7,207 nt of DNA from a virus (Duplodnaviria; Heunggongvirae; Uroviricota; Caudoviricetes), in IMG/VR virus record IMGVR_UViG_2541047595_000010; one strand, 5' to 3'. Under the pieces are notes generated by a model, which saw only the letters and a program-made list of their open reading frames with translations, did no database searches and had not been told where the DNA came from. This document shows positions 1 to 7,207 of the stretch, in pieces; the stretch's first letter is position 1, and each line of letters opens with the position of its first letter. The translations under genes and the position numbers were made by a program.

Positions 1-37
1 GACGGACTTCGGGGGAAAAACGAGTATTTTTAGTCAT
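1..37 (-). CDS. IS3-family transposase OrfA, first 12 codons only (MTKNTRFSPEVR...); rest lies outside the window
   Basis: ATG at 37..35 on the minus strand, preceded by SD AGAGG; the translated N-terminus matches my recollection of IS629/IS3411 OrfA. Confidence 0.65.
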   Translation of the reverse strand, partial: MTKNTRFSPEVR

Positions 38-91
38 CCTGTTTACCTCTTTCTCAGGAAGTTTAGTCTCCAGGATTCCCGGGGCGGTTCA
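1..91 (-). mobile_element. Terminal 91 bp of an IS3-family insertion sequence (IS629/IS3411-like), including the terminal inverted repeat; element continues left of the window
   Basis: Minus strand from position 91 reads TGAACCGCCCCGGGAATCCTGGAGACTAAACTTCCTGAGAAAGAGGTAAACAGG then ATG. IS3-family ends begin 5'-TG, and I recall this terminal sequence and the following N-terminus as IS629-group. Recall only, not searched. Confidence 0.7.
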
Positions 92-124
92 GTATGAGTA
101 ATTGCAGTAGTTAAAGAAAATTTC

Positions 125-235
125 TTATGCTCCGTCATGAATTTCCTCAGGTGTTGCGTCATCGTCCACTTCGAATACATCCTCAAAATCTCCACCAGCT
201 ATTCCCGTTTCAATAATAATTTTGAACTTTCGCAT
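125..235 (-). CDS. Hypothetical small acidic protein, 36 aa (MRKFKIIIETGIAGGDFEDVFEVDDDATPEEIHDGA)
   Basis: ATG at 235..233 and TAA at 127..125, below the ORF-track length cutoff. A GC hairpin (CCGCCC-TTTC-GGGCGG, 243-259) lies just upstream; the SD is weak. No homolog recognised. Confidence 0.25.
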   Translation of the reverse strand: MRKFKIIIETGIAGGDFEDVFEVDDDATPEEIHDGA

Positions 236-369
236 TTCACTACCGCCCTTTCGGGCGGCCTCCTGATGTTCTGAGGGTGCGGAAATCCATCCGGTTAAGG
301 ATTAAATTTTATTTACAGAACTGAATTTAATTATTCAGATATACGTATCTGTAGCCTTACGAATCTACT

Positions 370-419
370 CACTGGATGCCTCTTTCATAAAAATAATCCA
401 GTGGGTTTTATCGTTTTTT
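370..419. repeat. 8-bp perfect inverted repeat CACTGGAT / ATCCAGTG (370-377 and 396-403) with an 18-nt loop, followed by the T-rich tract GGTTTTATCGTTTTTT
   Basis: Read directly from the sequence; sits in an AT-rich non-coding spacer downstream of the methyltransferase ORF. Function unknown (weak terminator-like element or protein-binding site). Confidence 0.4.
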
Positions 420-497
420 CCCTGTTCGTTGACAGATAACAGGTTTTCTGTCTGTCAGTGCCAGAATCTGGCTTACCGGTATTTGCGTTTCATTCCA

Positions 498-854
498 TTA
501 AAAAATCAGAACGCCGTGCGGCCTCAACACCCGAAAGGCTTCTTTAAATCTCTGTCGCGAATCATCACGCCAGGCATCTTTATTCAGCCGTCCATATTTC
601 TTTCCCATCCAGGCGTTATCACCAACACTCTCAAGATGCGGAGGGTCTAATACAACCATCGAAAAAGATGCGTCTGCAAATGATAATGCACGAAAATCTG
701 CGATAATGTCAGGGCTGATAATCAAGCGTCTCCCATTGCGTAATGTGTATCCTTCTTTTCTGATATCGCTGAATATCGCCCGTTCGTCAGACTTATCGAA
801 CCAGAACATGCGGCTGCCACAGCACATATCAAGAATGGTTGCCGGTGCACTCAC
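498..854 (-). CDS. SAM-dependent methyltransferase (amino-methyltransferase type), probably 3'-truncated or unusually short (118 aa)
   Basis: Motif I-like ILDMCCGSR near the N-terminus and motif IV-like VVLDPPH (the D/N/S-P-P-Y/F/W/H family) after it. The ORF ends right after a motif-III-like LRPHGVLIF, with no C-terminal strands and no continuation in any frame. GTG start at 854..852 overlaps the upstream stop as GTGA. Confidence 0.6.
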   Translation of the reverse strand: MSAPATILDMCCGSRMFWFDKSDERAIFSDIRKEGYTLRNGRRLIISPDIIADFRALSFADASFSMVVLDPPHLESVGDNAWMGKKYGRLNKDAWRDDSRQRFKEAFRVLRPHGVLIF

Positions 855-1273
855 TGCGCCACGTCCTGAAAATTACCCTGATAGAAAGCCAGTATGCGCT
901 GCATAACTTCGCTCTTCCGGCACTCGCGACAGATTATGTTTAGGCGACTGTCGTAGCGACGTATTTCTCCGTCAGGTGATGACCAGATAAGGTCCGGATC
1001 AACCACAGCAGGTTTCTTCACCTTTGCCCTCGAGAGTTTTTTGCGGGCGTTTTGCCAGTCCTTACGCGCCTGTTCAGAGGGGAATAACCCGTAGCCGGAG
1101 TTGTATACATCGCCACTGGCTACCAGCTCTCTGGCAAGAACGCTCATCAGATATCTAGTCGCACCTGTTTTAGCTTCCAGTTGCCGTAACGTCTCACGGC
1201 CGCTCTGGCGCACGAGTTCCACCACCTGCCATTTAATTTTTTCCCGCTCTTCTTGTGTAAAAACTTTTGCCAC
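851..1273 (-). CDS. Hypothetical phage early protein, 140 aa, possible helix-turn-helix
   Basis: GTG start at 1273..1271 with a strong SD (AAGGGGGA) 4-5 nt upstream; sits between the replication initiator and the methyltransferase in one co-directional operon; stop overlaps the methyltransferase start. Confidence 0.6.
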   Translation of the reverse strand: MAKVFTQEEREKIKWQVVELVRQSGRETLRQLEAKTGATRYLMSVLARELVASGDVYNSGYGLFPSEQARKDWQNARKKLSRAKVKKPAVVDPDLIWSSPDGEIRRYDSRLNIICRECRKSEVMQRILAFYQGNFQDVAQ

Positions 1274-1313
1274 AAGTCCCCCTTAAAATTACCTCATGAC
1301 CTGAAATCAACAC

Positions 1314-2279
1314 TTATCCTCTGAAACCAGGCGGAATTTCTGTATCCGGTTCAGAAATATGATTAACACAACGCTGTACAGGTGAACGTCCCAGGCGGAT
1401 GACCAGTTCGTCCCATTTTTCGCGGAGCTTTGACGGGCTCATGATGTTTTTTACCCAGAATGGATCTCGCTGAACCCGACCAAACATTTCGCAAATTTGT
1501 CTGTGGCTTCTGCCATCCAGCATCCGCATTGTGCGCACGTCATTGGCCCAGGCAGTCCAGTTAGGCTCTTTTGGTCGCATGATCTCGCCATCATCACTGG
1601 CTGCCTGTTCGTAGAGACCCACGATCCGCCCCCAGATCCACTGCGCACACGCCAAATCCTCCCTGCTACCCCACTGGCGTTTTTTCGCACTAAACACAAC
1701 CGCGTCGGAGTTCCGGGTTAAAAAATCCTGTTCAGTCGTCTGCGGGTCCGGTTGCGAAGCTTCCGGACGAAAAGTGTTTTTATTCTCTGTAGTAATCTCT
1801 GTTGTATTCTCTGTAAGATCATCAGGCCATTTTGACCCGATGACATTGGGTCGTTTTGAACCAATGGAGCGTTTCATTTTGACCTCTTCCATCGTGTCAT
1901 TTTGACCTGATGGAGCGGCGCATTTTGAACCGATGGATTCGCTCAATTTGCCACCATCTAAAAGCTCGCTCCCATAGTTGATCGTGTAGAAATTGGTCAT
2001 ATCGCGCTTTGATTTATTGAGCTTTTCACAACGCAAAAGCCCCAGCGTTTTCAGACTTGCAAACGCGCGCTTTAACGTTGACTCTGACCAGAATGGGAAC
2101 TGTTCCAGCCATTGTTCCGTTGTGTTATAAATCCAGCGAACACCATCACATTCCATGCCGGAGTTGGTATCTCTCAACCAGTAGTGCAGTTGTTGCAAAA
2201 CAATGGCTTCGTTTAAGCCAATTTTCATTGCCAGCTGCGTGTTTATAACCAGTGGGCGTTCAGCAAAAAGAAGGCTCAT
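1314..2279 (-). CDS. Phage replication initiator / replisome organiser (lambda O-like role), with iterons embedded in the central part of the gene
   Basis: Long ORF in an operon with the cro-like gene. N-terminal region resembles phage replisome-organiser winged-helix domains (recall-based). Start is ambiguous: ATG at 2279..2277 (used here) or in-frame TTG at 2333 or 2321. Internal direct repeats encode repeated IGSK and TTEN peptide motifs, as in lambda O. Confidence 0.8.
   Translation of the reverse strand: MSLLFAERPLVINTQLAMKIGLNEAIVLQQLHYWLRDTNSGMECDGVRWIYNTTEQWLEQFPFWSESTLKRAFASLKTLGLLRCEKLNKSKRDMTNFYTINYGSELLDGGKLSESIGSKCAAPSGQNDTMEEVKMKRSIGSKRPNVIGSKWPDDLTENTTEITTENKNTFRPEASQPDPQTTEQDFLTRNSDAVVFSAKKRQWGSREDLACAQWIWGRIVGLYEQAASDDGEIMRPKEPNWTAWANDVRTMRMLDGRSHRQICEMFGRVQRDPFWVKNIMSPSKLREKWDELVIRLGRSPVQRCVNHISEPDTEIPPGFRG
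1781..1817. repeat. Three tandem 12-bp repeats, core ATTCTCTGT / AATCTCTGT / ATTCTCTGT, in an AT-rich patch
   Basis: Core starts at 1782, 1794 and 1806 (12-bp period), immediately beside the iteron array. Confidence 0.5.
1828..1945. repeat. Five direct iterons with 23-bp period, consensus about CATTTTGA(C/A)C(C/T)GATGGAGCG; putative origin of replication
   Basis: TTTTGA cores at 1830, 1854, 1877, 1900 and 1923 (spacings 24, 23, 23, 23), with conserved flanks and a divergent middle in repeat 3. The location inside the initiator gene parallels lambda ori within O. Confidence 0.7.
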
Positions 2280-2781
2280 AATTCCATCCAGCTTTTTGTT
2301 GGTATTGCTGTCGATACGCAAGTTTGAAAGCAATTGCTTTTTCTATAAGTTCGTCAGTTTCACGATCCACTACGGCAGGATCAGCAAAAAGCAGTCCGGA
2401 CTCCACCACATCGCCATATTCTTTGTTTAACCCGGCGATCATGCACGTGATGCTTTTTCCGTCAGTAATTTCACGATACAACCTGAAATCATTAATCCGG
2501 ATAGCCTCCATAATTGCAGGCACTAGCGCCGTGAACTTTTCACGCTTATCCCTGGTGTCGATAGCCTTCCAGCGTTCAAATATCTTCACTCGATTAACGC
2601 CAAGCGCTCGCTGATCAATCGCGCCACCTTCATATGTGACACGCTGAACATCGATGTTCGGGCGCTCTTTCAAAGCCCAGAATGCTTCAGTGATTAATAT
2701 CGTCGCCTGCTCCTGTGTCATTCCTGGTCGACATATCCAGGCATCCAGAGCCTCACGAGCCTGTTCAGGAGTGATTTTCAT
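2260..2781 (-). CDS. Hypothetical early regulator at the cII position (173 aa); possibly YdaT-like
   Basis: ATG at 2781..2779, overlapping the dicC stop by 17 nt and the downstream initiator start by about 20 nt (operon coupling). Family assignment is a guess from synteny, not from recognised motifs. Confidence 0.55.
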   Translation of the reverse strand: MKITPEQAREALDAWICRPGMTQEQATILITEAFWALKERPNIDVQRVTYEGGAIDQRALGVNRVKIFERWKAIDTRDKREKFTALVPAIMEAIRINDFRLYREITDGKSITCMIAGLNKEYGDVVESGLLFADPAVVDRETDELIEKAIAFKLAYRQQYQQKAGWNYEPSFC

Positions 2782-2995
2782 TGTTCAACCGCCCCGCCCG
2801 CTTCGTCTTACGATATTCATCATAAACTTTGGGATCATACTGAAGCTCCCCGCCAGATGCCTCCTGTAGACGCATCGCGCGACCTTCGGGAACTAAATCC
2901 CCTTTCCAGCTATAAAGCGAAGCCAAACGAATACCTGCTGCTTGTGCAAGTTTTGTTTTTGAACCGAAATACAAAAGAGCGTCAGTTTTAAGCAT
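2765..2995 (-). CDS. dicC: Cro-like transcriptional regulator DicC (76 aa)
   Basis: ATG at 2995..2993 with SD AAGGTG; divergent from dicA; length and position match my recollection of K-12 Qin DicC. Confidence 0.85.
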   Translation of the reverse strand: MLKTDALLYFGSKTKLAQAAGIRLASLYSWKGDLVPEGRAMRLQEASGGELQYDPKVYDEYRKTKRAGRLNNENHS

Positions 2996-3010
2996 TTAAA
3001 ACACCTTTAT

Positions 3011-3028
3011 TGTTAGTCATAACTAACA
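3011..3028. promoter_or_regulatory. Operator-like imperfect palindrome TGTTAGTCATAACTAACA (16 of 18 symmetric positions)
   Basis: Seen in the dicC-dicA intergenic region; overlaps the -10 and start region of the candidate dicC promoter; shares the 10-mer TGTTAGTCAT with the site at 3557-3572. Confidence 0.5.
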
Positions 3029-3056
3029 AGATAGATGTTAACAAAAACATAGTCAA
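3028..3056 (-). promoter_or_regulatory. Candidate sigma70 promoter for the dicC operon: -35 TTGACT, 17-nt spacer, -10 TATCTT (minus-strand reading)
   Basis: Hexamers read from the sequence (plus-strand agtcaa at 3051-3056 and aagata at 3028-3033); positioned about 35-60 nt upstream of the dicC start. Confidence 0.45.
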
Positions 3057-3062
3057 TACGAT

Positions 3063-3076
3063 TTAGCATTAGCTAA
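3063..3076. promoter_or_regulatory. Operator-like palindrome TTAGCATTAGCTAA abutting the dicA start codon
   Basis: Half-sites TTAGC / GCTAA with a 4-nt spacer, ending 2 nt before the dicA ATG. The dicA promoter itself could not be placed confidently; dicA may be leaderless or nearly so. Confidence 0.4.
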
Positions 3077-3078
3077 CT

Positions 3079-3486
3079 ATGGAAACAAAAAATTTAACTA
3101 TCGGCGAACGCATCAGGTATCGTCGGAAAAACCTCAAACACACCCAAAGGTCTCTTGCTAAAGCCCTGAAAATCTCCCATGTGTCTGTATCACAATGGGA
3201 ACGGGGTGATAGTGAACCTACAGGGAAGAACCTTTTTGCCCTCAGCAAAGTATTGCAATGCTCACCAACATGGATTCTATTTGGCGATGAAGACAAGCAA
3301 CCAACACCACCTGTTGAGAAGCCAGTTGCCTTATCCCCCAAAGAACTAGAGCTCCTTGAGCTGTTTAATGCACTGCCAGAATCAGAACAGGATACCCAGC
3401 TCGCCGAAATGCGAGCTCGAGTAAAAAACTTCAATAAACTCTTTGAAGAATTACTAAAAGCCCGTCAGCGGACAAATAAAAGATAA
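3079..3486 (+). CDS. dicA: HTH (XRE/cI-type) repressor DicA (135 aa)
   Basis: N-terminal HTH (RSLAKALKISHVSVSQWERG); METKNLTIGERIRYRRKNLKHTQ... matches my recollection of DicA; exact length match; divergent arrangement with the cro-like dicC. Confidence 0.9.
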   Translation: METKNLTIGERIRYRRKNLKHTQRSLAKALKISHVSVSQWERGDSEPTGKNLFALSKVLQCSPTWILFGDEDKQPTPPVEKPVALSPKELELLELFNALPESEQDTQLAEMRARVKNFNKLFEELLKARQRTNKR

Positions 3487-3521
3487 CATCATCAATGAGT
3501 TATCTTTTACTACATCAATCA

Positions 3522-3539
3522 TGTTAGCTATAGCATACA
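3522..3539. promoter_or_regulatory. Weaker operator-like imperfect palindrome TGTTAGCTATAGCATACA (14 of 18 symmetric)
   Basis: Located just upstream of the -35 of the candidate dicB-operon promoter. Confidence 0.3.
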
Positions 3540-3546
3540 AAATCAC

Positions 3547-3575
3547 TTGACCGATATGTTAGTCATGGCTAATCT
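3547..3575 (+). promoter_or_regulatory. Candidate repressible promoter of the ydfABC-dicF-dicB operon: -35 TTGACC (3547-3552), 17-nt spacer, -10 TAATCT (3570-3575), with operator TGTTAGTCATGGCTAA (3557-3572) across the spacer and -10
   Basis: Near-consensus hexamers with ideal spacing, about 80 nt upstream of ydfA; the embedded operator shares TGTTAGTCAT with the intergenic operator, consistent with DicA repression of the dicB operon (established for K-12). Confidence 0.5.
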
Positions 3576-3652
3576 TGTTTGCATCAACACACCGCACGGT
3601 GTTCTCAGCAAACAGTTCCGCTACCCCAGCGTTAAGGGGAAATGAGGTCAGC

Positions 3653-3808
3653 ATGGATACTATCGATCTTGGCAACAACGAATCTCTGGTGTACGGCGTG
3701 TTTCCAAACCAGGACGGCACGTTCACCGCAATGACGTATACCAAAAGCAAAACGTTTAAAACCGAAAATGGTGCCCGTCGCTGGCTGGAAAGAAACTCAG
3801 GTGAGTGA
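3653..3808 (+). CDS. ydfA: Small prophage protein YdfA (51 aa)
   Basis: ATG at 3653 with SD GAGG 5 nt upstream; the ORF-track entry 3575..3808 is the same frame with a spurious 5' extension. Length and position match K-12 ydfA. Confidence 0.8.
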   Translation: MDTIDLGNNESLVYGVFPNQDGTFTAMTYTKSKTFKTENGARRWLERNSGE

Positions 3809-3809
3809 T

Positions 3810-3938
3810 ATGGATTTCGACACAATCATGGAAAAGGCTTACGAAGAATACTTCGAAGGCCTTGCCGAAGGCGAAGAAGCTCTCAGCTTCAGTGAGTTTA
3901 AACAGGCGCTTTCCAGTTCGGCAAAATCTAACGGCTGA
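3810..3938 (+). CDS. ydfB: Small acidic prophage protein YdfB (42 aa; MDFDTIMEKAYEEYFEGLAEGEEALSFSEFKQALSSSAKSNG)
   Basis: ATG at 3810, one nt after the ydfA stop, SD GGTGAG; translated by hand; absent from the ORF track because it is short. Length and position match K-12 ydfB. Confidence 0.75.
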   Translation: MDFDTIMEKAYEEYFEGLAEGEEALSFSEFKQALSSSAKSNG

Positions 3939-3967
3939 TAAGCGAAACAGCACCGCGAGGAATCAGT

Positions 3968-4186
3968 ATGCAGAAACGAGAACCCGTCATCATCGCGCCA
4001 GACTATACCGATGATGAACTTTATGAGTGGATGCGCCAGAAAATTAATGCAGCGCAGGATCTGAAATGGGCTAATGAAGCCAGGGCTAAGCAGGCTGAAA
4101 ATCTGTCCGCTCTGGAGCAGGATATCACCAATCTGGAAAAAGCAGCGGCATTAAGCATTGCCAGAATGATTACATACCCGCGTTAG
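3968..4186 (+). CDS. ydfC: Small prophage protein YdfC (72 aa), C-terminal coiled-coil-like
   Basis: ORF-track entry with SD GAGGAA; length and position match K-12 ydfC. Confidence 0.8.
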   Translation: MQKREPVIIAPDYTDDELYEWMRQKINAAQDLKWANEARAKQAENLSALEQDITNLEKAAALSIARMITYPR

Positions 4187-4526
4187 TAGCTAATCAACAA
4201 AGCTAAGGTTAGTAATTAAGGAGTTCTCCACGGGTGAGGTGGAGTGCGTGCGCCGGACACGGGTGCGCATCCGGAACTGACAGTTTACTGAAAGGATATT
4301 TCCCTGAAAAGTCAGACCATAACGCGAAAGCGCACGGCGAGGTAGCTGGTTCATAGATAGCCTGTCGTTAAATTTTCGTCGACCGTGCGCTTCCGGTTGT
4401 GGCAACCCGCGAAATGGCGCGGCGGTAAGTATGGCGGGGTTATTCCTTCCCCGTTGAGGACACCGGGTTGTCAGGTTGACCATACGCTTAAGTGACAACC
4501 CCGCTGCAACGCCCTCTGTTATCAAT

Positions 4527-4585
4527 TTTCTGGTGACGTTTGGCGGTATCAGTTTTACTCCGTGACTGCTCTGCCGCCCTTTTTA
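4527..4585 (+). ncRNA. dicF: DicF small RNA (about 53 nt plus U tail), processed from the dicB-operon transcript
   Basis: TTTCTGGTGACGTTTGGCGGTATCAGTTTTACTCCGTGACTGCTCTGCCGCCC followed by TTTTT matches my recollection of DicF; it sits between ydfC and dicB as in K-12. Confidence 0.7.
4543..4585 (+). terminator. Intrinsic terminator-like element at the DicF 3' end (GC stem GGCGG...CCGCC followed by TTTTT)
   Basis: GGCGG at 4543-4547 can pair with CCGCC at 4574-4578; T5 at 4580-4584. The loop is large, so termination is probably partial, consistent with dicB being expressed downstream. Confidence 0.45.
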
Positions 4586-4753
4586 AAGTGAATTTTGTGA
4601 TGTGGTGAATGCGGCTGAGCGCACGCGGAACAGTTAAAACCAAAAACAGTGTTATGGGTGGATTCTCTGTATCCGGCGTTAATTGTTAACTGGTTAACGT
4701 CACCTGGAGGCACCAGGCACTGCATCACAAAATTCATTGTTGAGGACGCGATA

Positions 4754-4942
4754 ATGAAAACGTTATTACCAAACGTTAATACGTCTGAAGGTTGTTTTGA
4801 AATTGGTGTCACTATCAGTAACCCAGTATTTACTGAAGATGCCATTAACAAGAGAAAACAAGAACGGGAGCTATTAAATAAAATATGCATTGTTTCAATG
4901 CTGGCTCGTTTACGTCTGATGCCAAAAGGATGTGCACAATGA
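4754..4942 (+). CDS. dicB: Cell-division inhibitor DicB (62 aa)
   Basis: ATG at 4754 with SD GAGGA 7 nt upstream; MKTLLPNVNTSEGCFEIGV... matches my recollection of DicB; the ORF-track entry 4649..4942 is the same frame with a spurious extension. Confidence 0.85.
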   Translation: MKTLLPNVNTSEGCFEIGVTISNPVFTEDAINKRKQERELLNKICIVSMLARLRLMPKGCAQ

Positions 4943-5130
4943 ATTCAGCATTTGTGCTTGTTCTGACAGTTTTTCTTGTTTCCGGAGAGCCAGTTGATAT
5001 TGCAGTCAGTGTTCACAGGACAATGCAGGAGTGTATGACTGCAGCAACCGAACAGAAAATTCCCGGTAACTGTTACCCGGTCGATAAAGTTATTCACCAG
5101 GATAATATCGAAATCCCGGCAGGTCTTTAA
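4939..5130 (+). CDS. ydfD: Small membrane protein YdfD (63 aa), hydrophobic N-terminus MNSAFVLVLTVFLVSG
   Basis: ATG at 4939 overlaps the dicB stop as ATGA (translational coupling); length and position match K-12 ydfD. Confidence 0.8.
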   Translation: MNSAFVLVLTVFLVSGEPVDIAVSVHRTMQECMTAATEQKIPGNCYPVDKVIHQDNIEIPAGL

Positions 5131-5222
5131 AACAGTTCCGTAATAAATATCCGGTTTCATTCTTATATGCCAGCAATGGCAGGGATTTGTTCATCCTTAA
5201 ATCTGTCATGAGGTTAAAACAA

Positions 5223-7207
5223 ATGAGTAAAGTCTTTATTTGCGCCGCTATTCCTGACGAACTGGCAACAAGGGAAGAAGGCGCTGTGGCTGTAGCCACA
5301 GCCATTGAAGCTGGCGACGAACGCCGTGCTCGAGCAAAATTTCACTGGCAATTCCTGGAACATTATCCGGCTGCTCAGGACTGCGCTTATAAATTTATTG
5401 TCTGCGAGGATAAACCTGGCATACCCCGCCCTGCCCTCGATTCATGGGATGCTGAATATATGCAGGAAAACCGCTGGGATGAGGAGTCTGCTTCTTTTGT
5501 CCCGGTTGAGACTGAATCCGATCCGATGAACGTCACTTTTGACAAGCTGGCCCCTGAAGTACAGAACGCTGTCATGGTTAAGTTCGACACATGTGAAAAC
5601 ATCACCGTTGATATGGTTATTAGCGCACAGGAATTGTTGCAGGAAGACATGGCAACATTCGACGGACATATCGTTGAAGCGTTGATGAAAATGCCAGAAG
5701 TTAACGCCATGTATCCGGAGCTTAAGTTGCACGCCATTGGGTGGGTTAAGCATAAATGTATTCCTGGTGCTAAATGGCCCGAAATTCAGGCAGAGATGCG
5801 CATCTGGAAAAAACGTCGCGAAGGTGAACGCAAGGAAACCGGAAAATACACGTCTGTTGTTGATCTCGCCCGCGCCAGAGCCAATCAACAGTACACTGAA
5901 AATTCAACAGGAAAAATCAGCCCGGTCATTGCTGCCATTCATCGCGAATACAAGCAGACATGGAAAACACTGGATGACGAACTGGCCTACGCTCTCTGGC
6001 CTAGTGATGTGGATGCCGGAAACATTGACGGCAGCATCCATCGCTGGGCAAAAAAAGAAGTTATCGACAACGACCGCGAAGACTGGAAGCGTATCTCGGC
6101 ATCAATGCGCAAACAGCCTGATGCCCTTCGCTACGACCGCCAAACTATTTTTGGCCTTGTCCGTGAGCGTCCGATCGACATTCACAAAGATCCCGTAGCA
6201 CTGAACAAATATATCTGCGAATACCTGACGACAAAGGGCGTGTTTGAGAATGAAGAAACAGACCTGGGCACTGTTGATGTTCTCCAGTCATCAGAAACAC
6301 AAACTGATGCAGTGGAAACTGAGGTATCTGATATCCCAAAAAATGAAACCGCGCCGGAAGCTGAACCATCTGTAGAGCGTGAGGGGCCGTTCTATTTCCT
6401 CTTCGCAGATAAGGACGGAGAAAAATACGGTCGCGCAAACAAACTCTCTGGTCTGGATAAGGCACTGGCTGCTGGCGCCACTGAAATCACAAAAGAAGAA
6501 TATTTTGCCCGAAAAAATGGCACATACACGGGCTTACCGCAAAATGTAGATACCGCTGAAGATTCAGAACAACCAGAGCCGATAAAAGTTACCGCTGACG
6601 AAGTAAACAAAATTATGCAGGCAGCCAATATCAGCCAGCCTGACGCCGATAAGTTGCTTGCTGCATCACGTGGTGAATTTGTTGAAGGGATTAGTGACCC
6701 GAATGATCCGAAATGGGTTAAGGGGCTCCAGACCCGCGATTCTGTGAACCAGAACCAGCATGAATCGGAACGGAACTACCAAAAAGCGGAACAAAACAGT
6801 CCAAATGCGTTACAAAACGAGCCAGAAACGAAACAGCCTGAACCAGTAGCGCAACAGGAAGTGGAAAAAGTCTGCACCGCCTGCGGTCAGACCGGCGGCG
6901 GCAACTGCCCTGATTGTGGCGCGGTGATGGGCGACGCAACATACCAAGAAACATTCGATGAAGAGTATCAGGTTGAAGTTCAGGAAGATGATCCGGAGGA
7001 AATGGAAGGCGCTGAACATCCACACAAGGAGAACACTGGCGGCAATCAGCATCACAATAGCGATAATGAAACTGGCGAGACGGCAGATCACCCAATTAAG
7101 GTGAACGGTCATCACGAAATCACATCCACCAGCAGGACGTGTGACCATCTAATGATCGACCTTGAAACCATGGGAAAAAATCCTGATGCCCCGATCATCT
7201 CAATAGG
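5223..7207 (+). CDS. Large ydfE-like early protein, 3'-partial (at least 661 codons, runs off window end): Cys4 zinc ribbon, acidic low-complexity linkers, start of a DnaQ-like 3'-5' exonuclease domain
   Basis: ATG at 5223 with SD GAGG 9 nt upstream; hand translation of 661 codons shows no stop. Not in the ORF track because no stop lies in the window. C-x2-C-x9-C-x2-C at 6873-6917; MIDLETMGKNPDAPIISIG at 7152-7207 resembles the DEDD Exo I motif. Occupies the recE position of Rac-type prophages. Confidence 0.85.
   Translation, partial: MSKVFICAAIPDELATREEGAVAVATAIEAGDERRARAKFHWQFLEHYPAAQDCAYKFIVCEDKPGIPRPALDSWDAEYMQENRWDEESASFVPVETESDPMNVTFDKLAPEVQNAVMVKFDTCENITVDMVISAQELLQEDMATFDGHIVEALMKMPEVNAMYPELKLHAIGWVKHKCIPGAKWPEIQAEMRIWKKRREGERKETGKYTSVVDLARARANQQYTENSTGKISPVIAAIHREYKQTWKTLDDELAYALWPSDVDAGNIDGSIHRWAKKEVIDNDREDWKRISASMRKQPDALRYDRQTIFGLVRERPIDIHKDPVALNKYICEYLTTKGVFENEETDLGTVDVLQSSETQTDAVETEVSDIPKNETAPEAEPSVEREGPFYFLFADKDGEKYGRANKLSGLDKALAAGATEITKEEYFARKNGTYTGLPQNVDTAEDSEQPEPIKVTADEVNKIMQAANISQPDADKLLAASRGEFVEGISDPNDPKWVKGLQTRDSVNQNQHESERNYQKAEQNSPNALQNEPETKQPEPVAQQEVEKVCTACGQTGGGNCPDCGAVMGDATYQETFDEEYQVEVQEDDPEEMEGAEHPHKENTGGNQHHNSDNETGETADHPIKVNGHHEITSTSRTCDHLMIDLETMGKNPDAPIISI

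What the first reader, a model, noticed from the sequence alone, without database searches (positions are those of the whole stretch)
1781..1945. Origin-like iteron array inside the replication initiator gene
Five direct repeats with a strict 23-bp period, plus three adjacent 12-bp AT-rich repeats, lie in the middle of the initiator ORF. This is the lambda ori-in-O architecture. It suggests a functional origin, so the prophage replication module may still be active although the region is flanked by an IS and a truncated gene.
Basis: partly seen in the sequence, partly recalled or inferred. Interest (0 to 1): 0.5.

Follow-up and report, generated by a model that had tools for sequence, protein, structure and literature searches.

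The report
Prophage replication origin inside initiator gene
The repeats are real and are almost certainly the replication origin of a common E. coli lambda-like prophage, sitting inside the gene of the protein that binds it; this is a textbook layout in a version not yet described.

Summary
Observation confirmed. On the minus strand, inside a 321-codon initiator gene (1314-2279) of a Qin/mEp460-type lambdoid prophage, lie five clear copies and one degenerate copy of a 23-bp imperfect palindrome (consensus CATCnGGTCAAAATGACCnGATG; 1820-1958; spacing 23,23,23,23,24). Three 12-bp repeats follow (1781-1816) and form the least stable stretch of the gene. The periodicity beat all 2000 codon shuffles. 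The copies are read in all three frames, so the repeat is in the DNA, not the protein.

Across 45 distinct relatives of the N-terminal domain, from Enterobacterales to Firmicutes, a similar array follows that domain. The base flanking the constant CA...TG core tracks one residue (Ser67 here): S with T, K/R with A, D with G. This is strong indirect evidence that the domain reads the repeats. The 12-mers (nCAGAGAnTAC) are conserved at synonymous codon positions, so they too are a DNA element.

The lambda ori-in-O reading is largely right. However, only the C-terminal domain is lambda-O-like, the N-terminal domain is not in Pfam's O family, and no P-type helicase loader follows. Identical DNA occurs in the complete phage PhiR42_1, so the module is plausibly functional. 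New member of a known kind; modest interest.

The parts
1314..2279 (-). Initiator gene (321 aa, ATG at 2279, TAA stop at 1314-1316). The mechanical ORF extends to a TTG at 2333.
   Evidence: ORF list. PGAP annotates the identical protein WP_000054512.1 as 'phage replication protein O'. PHROG 391 'replication initiation O-like' at 1e-91. No Pfam family matched.
1959..2279 (-). N-terminal domain coding region (aa 1-107), the putative winged-helix domain that binds the iterons.
   Evidence: 72-75% identical to Klebsiella phage initiators, 49-56% to Hafnia phage yong2 and about 46% to Staphylococcus phage proteins. The AF2 model shows a helix/strand pattern at modest confidence (pLDDT 50-74). The best Foldseek matches are weak: RepA_N initiator N-terminal domains and wHTH regulators, E >= 0.02.
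2079..2081 (-). Codon of Ser67 (FWSE-S-TLKR, start of predicted helix 66-78), the candidate base-reading residue.
   Evidence: Normalised mutual information with the iteron arm base is 0.96; the next best column scores 0.62. S goes with T (17/21), K/R with A (8/8), D with G (12/13) and N/H with C (3/3). The pairings recur in unrelated hosts and switch within closely related Pantoea domains.
1936..1958 (-). Iteron 0, degenerate (GATGGTGGCAAATTGAGCGAATC in gene orientation).
   Evidence: It lies in register, 23 nt before the next copy. The homologous copy in Klebsiella, Citrobacter and Enterobacter is a good GGTCAAAGTGACC site.
1913..1935 (-). Iteron 1 (CATCGGTTCAAAATGCGCCGCTC).
1890..1912 (-). 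Iteron 2 (CATCAGGTCAAAATGACACGATG), a full palindrome.
   Evidence: Identical to the reference copy in the Klebsiella phages.
1867..1889 (-). Iteron 3 (GAAGAGGTCAAAATGAAACGCTC).
1844..1866 (-). Iteron 4 (CATTGGTTCAAAACGACCCAATG), a full palindrome.
1820..1842 (-). Iteron 5 (CATCGGGTCAAAATGGCCTGATG), a full palindrome and the copy nearest the AT-rich tract.
1781..1816 (-). Three 12-bp repeats (gene orientation TTACAGAGAATA / CAACAGAGATTA / CTACAGAGAATA). They are the candidate DNA-unwinding element and carry a family-wide motif, nCAGAGAnTAC.
   Evidence: GC minimum of the gene. Least stable 40-mer of the gene. A-rich on the coding strand. Runs of the motif occur in 54 of 73 related genes, with synonymous third positions fixed.
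1398..1703 (-). C-terminal domain coding region (aa 193-294), homologous to the C-terminal domain of lambda O.
   Evidence: tblastn 36% identity to lambda, 434, 21, H-19B and Stx phage O proteins. BLASTP 34% over 148 aa, E 1e-26 for the single comparison.
1317..1379 (-). C-terminal tail (aa 301-321, VQRCVNHISEPDTEIPPGFRG), nearly identical to the last 21 residues of E. coli DnaT.
   Evidence: PDB sequence hits 2ru8, 6aep and 9zbt_D. Weak NCBIfam DnaT hit. The motif is present on most Enterobacterales initiators scanned and on no Pseudomonas, Acinetobacter, Comamonas, Psychrobacter or Firmicute initiator.

Best explanation
The segment is the replication origin of a Qin/mEp460-type lambdoid (pro)phage. 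It is embedded in the part of the initiator gene that encodes a disordered inter-domain linker.

Proposed mechanism:
1. Dimers of the initiator's N-terminal winged-helix-like domain bind the five or six palindromic iterons. This is inferred from covariation.
2. The 23-bp spacing, about 2.2 helical turns, lets the bound dimers assemble into an O-some-like nucleoprotein. This is inferred by analogy with lambda.
3. The stress opens the adjacent AT-rich block of three 12-mers. Sequence conservation of these 12-mers suggests they are read specifically, probably as single strands. This is inferred.
4. The lambda-O-like C-terminal domain and the DnaT-like C-terminal tail bring in the host helicase-loading machinery, with no phage-encoded loader. 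This step is speculative.

In the lysogen the module would be kept silent by the DicA repressor, because the initiator gene lies downstream of dicC.
For: - The repeat is real, strongly non-random and periodic.
- The copies are read in phases 0, 2, 1, 0, 2, 2 and encode GGK, GSK, GQN, VKM, GSK and GSK. The constraint is therefore on the DNA.
- The gene is an initiator.
- Order and polarity match oriLambda: iterons, then an A-rich, AT-rich tract, in the direction of transcription (PMC7466680).
- Forty-six relatives of the N-domain (45 distinct sequences) carry 22-24-bp arrays directly after that domain. They come from Enterobacterales, Pseudomonas, Acinetobacter, Comamonas, Staphylococcus, Bacillus, Lactobacillaceae and Clostridia. 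The CA...TG core is constant and the arms vary.
- The arm base covaries with residue 67, and the pairings recur independently.
- Against a Klebsiella phage gene, nucleotide identity peaks over the iterons (0.85-0.92, against 0.53-0.80 in the N-domain coding region). It falls to about 0.4 just after the 12-mers, where a different C-domain (Pfam Phg_2220_C) begins. N-domain plus origin therefore travel as one unit.
- The 12-mers are conserved at the DNA level. In units defined from the peptide alone, third-position A is 87% against 27% elsewhere, G-ending Glu/Lys codons are 93% against 46%, and the third codon keeps its T while its amino acid varies among I, N, T and S (Fisher 3.5e-59 and 4e-39).
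- The origin-coding part coincides with the lowest-confidence, structure-free part of the model, aa 108-175.
- The DNA is identical in complete phage PhiR42_1. In mEp460_ev081 the origin is conserved more than its flanks (1/181 against 31/785 differences, Fisher p = 0.019).
- The 191-nt origin segment occurs in 1956 of 5426 complete E. coli genomes.
Against: - No binding, unwinding or replication assay is possible here. Initiator-iteron recognition rests on covariation, which shared ancestry can inflate.
- The structure model is of low confidence (mean pLDDT 54), and no fold match reaches E 0.001.
- No helicase loader or helicase gene accompanies the initiator, so how DnaB would be loaded is unknown.
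- I could not read the source paper showing that PhiR42_1 forms plaques. Its viability is inferred from the GenBank record, which gives a complete genome and host ECOR13, and from the use of sibling PhiR phages in plaque assays.
- Rare natural alleles lack four iterons, so the full array is not indispensable for keeping the reading frame open.
Confidence: 0.85

Rival explanations
1. It is a fossil origin. The sequence is that of an origin, but in this cryptic prophage it no longer fires, because the module lacks a helicase loader or the prophage is decaying.
For: An IS3-family end lies at 1-91 and pseudogenes lie nearby. Many E. coli copies sit in prophage remnants carrying IS elements. No P, DnaC or DnaB-like gene is present. 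Deletion alleles that lose four iterons exist.
Against: The initiator ORF is intact and identical to a very widespread protein. The whole 7.1 kb is 100.0% identical to complete phage PhiR42_1, which also has no loader gene. Phage genome records from Klebsiella, Hafnia and E. coli, among them mEp460_ev081, also show no loader next to the initiator. The origin is more conserved than its flanks.
Confidence: 0.1
2. The repeats serve a non-replicative role for the initiator or the host. They might be autoregulatory binding sites, or a retained decoy that titrates the initiator of superinfecting phages of the same origin type and so excludes them.
For: Ectopic copies of oriLambda are reported to inhibit lambda (titles and abstracts of PMC4488673 and PMC3349717). 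The origin segment is present in 36% of complete E. coli genomes, often in defective prophages.
Against: The same array is found in complete phage genomes, next to an AT-rich unwinding-type element and in the canonical origin position. A decoy role would be additional to the origin role, not an alternative to it. No test was made.
Confidence: 0.04
3. It is a coding or slippage artefact: a tandem duplication or a peptide repeat in a low-complexity linker, with no function at the DNA level.
For: The region encodes a disordered linker. The peptide IGSK recurs three times. The 12-mers are in frame. Recombination between copies does occur.
Against: A 23-nt period puts the copies in three different frames with different peptides. 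The array is conserved across phyla while its arms covary with residue 67. Synonymous positions of the 12-mers are fixed.
Confidence: 0.01

Closest known systems
oriLambda inside gene O of phage lambda, and the six-iteron origins of Stx phages
   Same: The origin lies in the middle of the initiator gene. The iterons are imperfect inverted repeats with an A-tract centre (lambda ATCCCTCAAAACGAGGGA; here GGGTCAAAATGACCC). Spacing is 20-24 bp. An AT-rich tract, A-rich on the coding strand, follows the iterons in the direction of transcription. The C-terminal domains of the two initiators are homologous (PMC7466680).
   Different: The N-terminal DNA-binding domain is not Pfam Phage_rep_O. There are five or six iterons rather than four. 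The AT-rich tract is built of three sequence-conserved 12-mers. No P gene follows. A DnaT-like tail is present.
SPP1 oriL inside gene 38 (origin-binding protein gp38/G38P) and similar origins inside replication genes of Firmicute phages
   Same: Direct repeats bound by the initiator, plus an AT-rich unwinding element, positioned within the initiator's own gene (PMC6316719). The N-domain family found here extends into Staphylococcus, Bacillus and Lactobacillaceae with the same layout.
   Different: SPP1 also encodes a helicase loader (gp39) and a helicase (gp40). No sequence match to Pfam Phage_rep_org_N was found for this protein.
RepA_N plasmid initiators (PDB 5kbj, 4pql, 4pt7)
   Same: These are the top, though weak, fold matches of the N-domain model. 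They are winged-helix N-terminal domains that bind iterons. As I recall, the RepA_N origin also lies within the rep gene; this was not checked here.
   Different: Foldseek E is only 0.02-0.1, on a low-confidence model. There is no detectable sequence similarity.
Iteron-plasmid origins with repeated 13-mers in the unwinding element (RK2 oriV/TrfA)
   Same: An iteron array lies next to an AT-rich element made of short repeats. In RK2 the Rep protein binds one strand of that element sequence-specifically, and all repeats are required (PMC4081077). This is a precedent for why the 12-mers are sequence-conserved.
   Different: Those origins lie outside the rep gene. To my knowledge (not checked here) they also use DnaA boxes. 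Here no DnaA box occurs near the array beyond chance. Binding of the 12-mers is untested.

Membership tests
Lambda-type origin (origin inside the initiator gene) | An array of at least three or four inverted-repeat iterons spaced about two helical turns apart | tested here: met
   Five good copies and one degenerate copy, spaced 23-24 bp. Three are full palindromes.
Lambda-type origin (origin inside the initiator gene) | Location within the central, linker-coding part of the initiator gene | tested here: met
   Codons 108-167 of 321. This coincides with the unstructured segment of the model, aa 108-175.
Lambda-type origin (origin inside the initiator gene) | An AT-rich unwinding tract directly after the iterons in the direction of initiator transcription | tested here: met
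   GC 0.28 at 1770-1819. Least stable 40-mer of the gene. A-rich on the coding strand, as in lambda.
Lambda-type origin (origin inside the initiator gene) | The iterons are bound by the N-terminal domain of the encoded initiator | not testable with these tools
   Indirect support only. Residue 67 covaries with the arm base across 45 distinct homologues, and N-domain and iterons are inherited together.
Lambda-type origin (origin inside the initiator gene) | The segment supports initiator-dependent autonomous replication | not testable with these tools
   Only indirect evidence: identical DNA in complete phage PhiR42_1, and a near-identical origin in mEp460_ev081.
Lambda-type replication module (O plus P) | A P-type, DnaC-type or DnaB-type helicase-loading gene immediately downstream of the initiator | tested here: not met
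   The next genes are DUF977/Ren-like and a SAM methyltransferase. The same holds in the related phages.
Lambda O protein family | N-terminal domain matches Pfam PF04492 (Phage_rep_O) | tested here: not met
   Lambda O scores 5.7e-36. This protein has no hit even at E up to 10.
Lambda O protein family | C-terminal domain homologous to that of lambda O | tested here: met
   34-36% identity over about 125-148 aa.
PHROG 391 'replication initiation O-like' | Full-length match to the family profile | tested here: met
   E 1.3e-91, protein residues 35-339 (numbering of the 339-aa ORF) against profile positions 11-298 of 298.
RepA_N / phage replisome-organizer initiators | N-terminal domain of that fold or family | tested here: inconclusive
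   No Pfam RepA_N or Phage_rep_org_N hit. Foldseek top hits are 5kbj and 4pql at E 0.02-0.04, from a low-confidence model.

The most novel reading that the evidence does not exclude
This may be a one-protein phage replication module of a kind found across phyla, with two features beyond the lambda paradigm.

1. The unwinding element would not be merely AT-rich. It would be a sequence-specific repeat (nCAGAGAnTAC) conserved from Enterobacterales to Firmicutes and read by the conserved N-domain or by conserved host machinery, probably as single-stranded DNA.
2. The initiator would dispense with a phage helicase loader because its C-terminus copies the last ~20 residues of the host restart protein DnaT. 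That would plug the origin into the host's PriA/DnaT/DnaC helicase-loading route.

The tail sits on three unrelated C-terminal backbones (the lambda-O-like domain here, the Phg_2220_C domain of the Klebsiella and Hafnia phages, and the phage Tritos initiator). In my sample it occurs only in phages of Enterobacterales hosts.
Probability: 0.3. Interest if true: 0.6.

Novelty: new member of a known kind. Interest (0 to 1): 0.33.

Why it matters
An origin inside the initiator gene is textbook for lambdoid phages, so the finding itself is ordinary. Its practical value is annotation. This origin segment is present in about a third of complete E. coli genomes, yet it sits inside genes labelled only 'hypothetical protein' or 'replication protein O'.

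If the module is active, derepression of the Qin-type prophage would cause local over-replication. The segment could also serve as a small one-gene replicon.

The family survey adds three testable leads:
- a single residue (67) that appears to set iteron specificity, which invites a specificity-swap experiment;
- a 12-mer unwinding-element motif conserved across phyla;
- a DnaT-tail mimic that could show what the unexplained C-terminal tail of DnaT binds, and how lambdoid phages without a P gene load DnaB.

Tried and rejected
- **Family searches on the initiator.** Pfam and NCBIfam gave nothing useful apart from the weak DnaT-tail hit.
- **Structure.** The AlphaFold2 model from an 11-sequence alignment has mean pLDDT 54. 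Foldseek against the PDB gave no match at E <= 0.001, so fold assignment of the N-domain stays tentative.
- **Tail search.** HMMER with the 30-residue tail against 1.8 billion representative proteins returned only 16 hits, mostly fragments, and was uninformative. I replaced it with a direct scan of the C-termini of the fetched homologues.
- **Reading-frame test on the 12-mers.** 149 of 156 motif copies are in the same codon phase, so frame cannot separate a DNA constraint from a peptide constraint. My first codon test was circular, because the search pattern fixed those positions. I replaced it with units defined from the peptide alone.
- **Polymorphism among close E. coli alleles.** There were too few differences to compare iteron core with outer positions. 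It showed only that variation rises after the origin.
- **DnaA boxes.** One match in the window, at 1254-1262, outside the origin and at chance level.
- **Literature.** No paper links the Qin prophage with iterons, and none mentions the PGFRG motif in this context. The DnaT review and the cryo-EM paper assign no role to the extreme C-terminal tail. The Brenes and Laub paper describing the PhiR phages is not held.
- **Peptide-repeat and slippage reading.** Considered and rejected.
Full report
**Where the window comes from.** The window is part of a lambdoid prophage of the Qin (dicA-dicC-dicB) type in E. coli. Megablast finds positions 92-7207 at 100% identity in many complete E. coli chromosomes. 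Transferred from two of those chromosomes, the annotated gene order is:
- minus strand: a small SAM methyltransferase (498-854), a DUF977 protein (851-1273), 'phage replication protein O' (1314-2279), a YdaT-family/CII-like protein (2260-2781) and dicC (2765-2995);
- plus strand: dicA (3079-3486), ydfA/B/C, dicB, ydfD and a RecE-like exonuclease.

Rfam finds DicF RNA at 4528-4579. Positions 1-91 are the end of an IS3-family element; the same sequence lies at the end of the IS3-family insertion annotated in strain RM14721. In the source genome the IS interrupts a DUF7167 pseudogene.

**The observation.**
- Tandem Repeats Finder and the repeat finder both recover a 23-nt periodic array and three 12-mers at the stated coordinates.
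- In gene orientation the 23-mers lie at window 1958-1936 (degenerate), 1935-1913, 1912-1890, 1889-1867, 1866-1844 and 1842-1820. Spacing is 23, 23, 23, 23, 24, so the period is nearly but not strictly 23.
- The consensus is CATCnGGTCAAAATGACCnGATG. Three copies are full imperfect palindromes; the others keep the core and one arm.
- The periodicity is far beyond chance: z = 8.0, against a mean of 3.4 and a maximum of 5.6 in 2000 codon-shuffled versions of the ORF. Four core matches within 100 bp never occurred in 5000 Markov simulations, where the maximum was two.
- The 12-mers (1781-1816) form the GC minimum of the gene (0.28-0.31 against 0.48). They are its least stable 40-nt stretch, three standard deviations from the gene mean.

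**DNA or protein?** The 23-nt period places successive copies in codon phases 0, 2, 1, 0, 2, 2. The same DNA core is translated as GGK, GSK, GQN, VKM, GSK and GSK. The constraint is therefore on the DNA.

The 12-mers are in frame (T-E-N/I-T repeats), so frame alone cannot decide for them. I defined the units from the peptide pattern only, across the non-identical related genes that carry it (64 peptide-defined runs), and then looked at codon choice:
- The first codon ends in A in 87% of units, against 27% elsewhere in the same genes.
- The Glu/Lys codon ends in G in 93%, against 46% elsewhere.
- The third codon keeps its final T (142 of 175) while its amino acid varies among I, N, T and S.
- Fisher tests give 3.5e-59 and 4e-39.

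Synonymous positions are better conserved than amino acids. The 12-mer, consensus nCAGAGAnTAC, is thus itself a DNA element.

**The gene.**
- Pfam and NCBIfam do not recognise the protein. PHROG 391 'replication initiation O-like' matches it end to end at 1e-91.
- tblastn against phages shows a two-part protein. [quoted passage not shown]
- Residues 1-155 match different proteins: Klebsiella phages (72%), Hafnia phage yong2 (49%) and Staphylococcus phages (about 46%).
- Lambda O's N-terminal domain is Pfam PF04492, and this protein has no such hit. It works like O but is not a member of the O N-terminal family.
- An AlphaFold2 model is of low confidence (pLDDT 54). It still shows an N-terminal helix/strand domain, an unstructured segment at 108-175, a helical C-domain and a floppy tail. 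The unstructured segment is exactly the part encoded by the iterons and 12-mers.
- Foldseek gives only weak matches, led by RepA_N plasmid initiator N-terminal domains and winged-helix regulators.

**Comparison with lambda.** In lambda, four 18-20-bp inverted-repeat iterons (ATCCCTCAAAACGAGGGA; spacing 20, 24, 23) lie at codons about 117-145 of O. An A-rich tract follows them. PMC7466680 describes this as the general lambdoid arrangement. Here the order, the polarity relative to transcription, the A-tract centre of each iteron, the spacing of about two turns and the strand bias of the AT-rich tract are all the same.

**Relatives.**
- The Klebsiella phage genes carry six GGTCAAAATGAC iterons at 23-nt spacing, followed by the same three 12-mers.
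- Hafnia yong2 carries GGGACAAATTGTCC iterons.
- A phage with a different N-terminal region (vB_EcoM-689R6) has 15-nt TCAAAATCTGACCCG repeats.
- Between the window and a Klebsiella phage gene, nucleotide identity is 0.53-0.80 over the N-domain and peaks at 0.85-0.92 over the iterons. It collapses to about 0.4 right after the 12-mers, where the Klebsiella protein continues with an unrelated C-domain, Pfam Phg_2220_C.

N-domain and origin are thus inherited as one specificity unit, and C-domains are exchanged behind it.

**Family-wide survey and covariation.** A scan of one genome per species with the N-domain alignment returned 80 loci. Forty-six of the loci analysed (45 distinct N-domains) have clear 22-24-nt arrays beginning at codons about 99-141, directly after the N-domain. 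They come from Enterobacterales, Pseudomonas, Acinetobacter, Comamonas, Psychrobacter, Staphylococcus, Bacillus, Lactobacillaceae and Clostridia.

The CA...TG core is constant. The base flanking it differs by lineage: GGTCA, GGACA, GGGCA/GTGCA, or CCCA. Among all N-domain alignment columns, one stands out. Residue 67 (Ser in FWSESTLKR, at the start of predicted helix 66-78) has normalised mutual information 0.96 with the arm base, against 0.62 for the next column. The pairings are:

| Residue 67 | Arm base | Count |
|---|---|---|
| S | T | 17 of 21 |
| K or R | A | 8 of 8 |
| D | G | 12 of 13 |
| N or H | C | 3 of 3 |

The pairings recur in unrelated hosts. S with T occurs in Enterobacterales, Staphylococcus, Bacillus and Cellulosilyticum. 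D with G occurs in Pantoea, Pseudomonas, Comamonas, Acinetobacter and Paenalcaligenes. They also switch between Pantoea domains that are otherwise 80-91% identical. One of those, L023, has mixed arms and is a marginal call. It is not a binding experiment, and shared ancestry inflates such statistics.

**Is the module alive?**
- Window 92-7207 is 100.0% identical to Escherichia phage PhiR42_1. This is a complete 48.7-kb genome with lambda-like head, tail and lysis genes and host ECOR13.
- Sibling PhiR phages from the same collection were used in plaque assays. I could not read the source paper.
- Phage mEp460_ev081 has the same 966-nt gene with 32 differences. One falls in the 181 nt of iterons plus 12-mers and 31 in the other 785 nt (Fisher p = 0.019).
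- The 191-nt origin segment occurs in 1956 of 5426 complete E. coli genomes.
- Rare alleles (290 aa) have lost 93 nt, exactly four iterons, by recombination between copies.
- The IS at the window's left end lies outside the module.

A functional origin is therefore plausible but unproven for this copy.

**What differs from lambda.** No P, DnaC or DnaB-like gene follows the initiator here, in PhiR42_1, in mEp460_ev081, or in the Klebsiella, Hafnia and vB_EcoM-689R6 phages.

The last 21 residues, VQRCVNHISEPDTEIPPGFRG, are almost identical to the C-terminus of E. coli DnaT, [21 protein letters not shown]. A similar ending (..DY..[IV]PxGFRG) closes most Enterobacterales initiators of this family, even those with an unrelated C-domain. 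It also closes the phage Tritos initiator, which has a different N-terminal part and its own iterons (GTCACG x5) and 12-mers (ACAGATAAAGAT x3). It is absent from the Pseudomonas, Acinetobacter, Comamonas, Psychrobacter and Firmicute members.

The literature I could reach gives no function for this DnaT tail. That the tail recruits host helicase-loading machinery is a hypothesis only.

**Verdict.**
- The architecture is textbook (lambda, Stx phages; SPP1 oriL in gene 38). This is a new, undescribed member of a known kind: no paper links Qin with iterons.
- Interest is modest. The side leads (a one-residue specificity code, a 12-mer conserved across phyla, the DnaT-tail mimic) are what could make it more than ordinary.

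Noticed in passing
window 1317-1379 (minus strand): The initiator ends in VQRCVNHISEPDTEIPPGFRG, nearly identical to the last 21 residues of E. coli DnaT (PDB 2ru8, 6aep, 9zbt_D). The motif also closes initiators with unrelated C-domains and phage Tritos' different initiator. In my sample it occurs only in Enterobacterales hosts. None of these modules has a helicase-loader gene. No function for the DnaT tail was found in the papers read.
   Followed up: partly
window 4528-4579 (+); surrounding ORF-poor stretch about 4190-4740: DicF antisense sRNA (Rfam RF00039, 76.7 bits) lies upstream of dicB (4754-4942), as expected for a Qin-type prophage.
   Followed up: no
window 1-91: This is the end of an IS3-family insertion sequence. 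In other genomes the sequence continues instead as a DUF7167 pseudogene (window about 53-235), so the IS interrupts that pseudogene. In strain RM14721 the same kind of IS sits inside the DUF977 gene.
   Followed up: partly
proteins P0016-P0021 (290 aa), corresponding to window about 1843-1935: Rare natural alleles of the initiator lack 31 codons (93 nt, four iterons). The deletion appears to come from recombination between the iteron at 1913-1935 and the one at 1820-1842. They leave only the degenerate copy and one hybrid iteron.
   Followed up: partly
L171 (phage Tritos) 1939-3009, minus strand of the locus: A different initiator type shows the same design inside its own gene: five GTCACG repeats at 10-11-nt spacing, followed by three ACAGATAAAGAT 12-mers. 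It ends with the identical DnaT-like tail.
   Followed up: partly
loci L050-L072 (Bacillus, Neobacillus, Staphylococcus, Lactobacillaceae homologues), C-termini: Firmicute members of the N-domain family end in acidic/aromatic tips (..EDFRFDDET, ..EPDFDF, ..KDDLPF, ..KELPW). These resemble the C-terminal tip of SSB. Initiator tails may be host-specific docking motifs.
   Followed up: no
window 2260-2279; proteins P0001, P0002, P0004 (448 aa): The YdaT/CII-like gene and the initiator gene overlap by 20 nt. In some genomes (P0001 is seen on 56 contigs) a 448-aa product carrying the YdaT Pfam domain plus the whole initiator is called, which suggests a fusion or frameshift variant.
   Followed up: no
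window 498-854 (minus strand): The SAM-dependent methyltransferase is only 118 aa and matches positions 52-165 of a 229-position PHROG DNA-methyltransferase profile. It may be a shortened form, although PGAP annotates it as complete.
   Followed up: no
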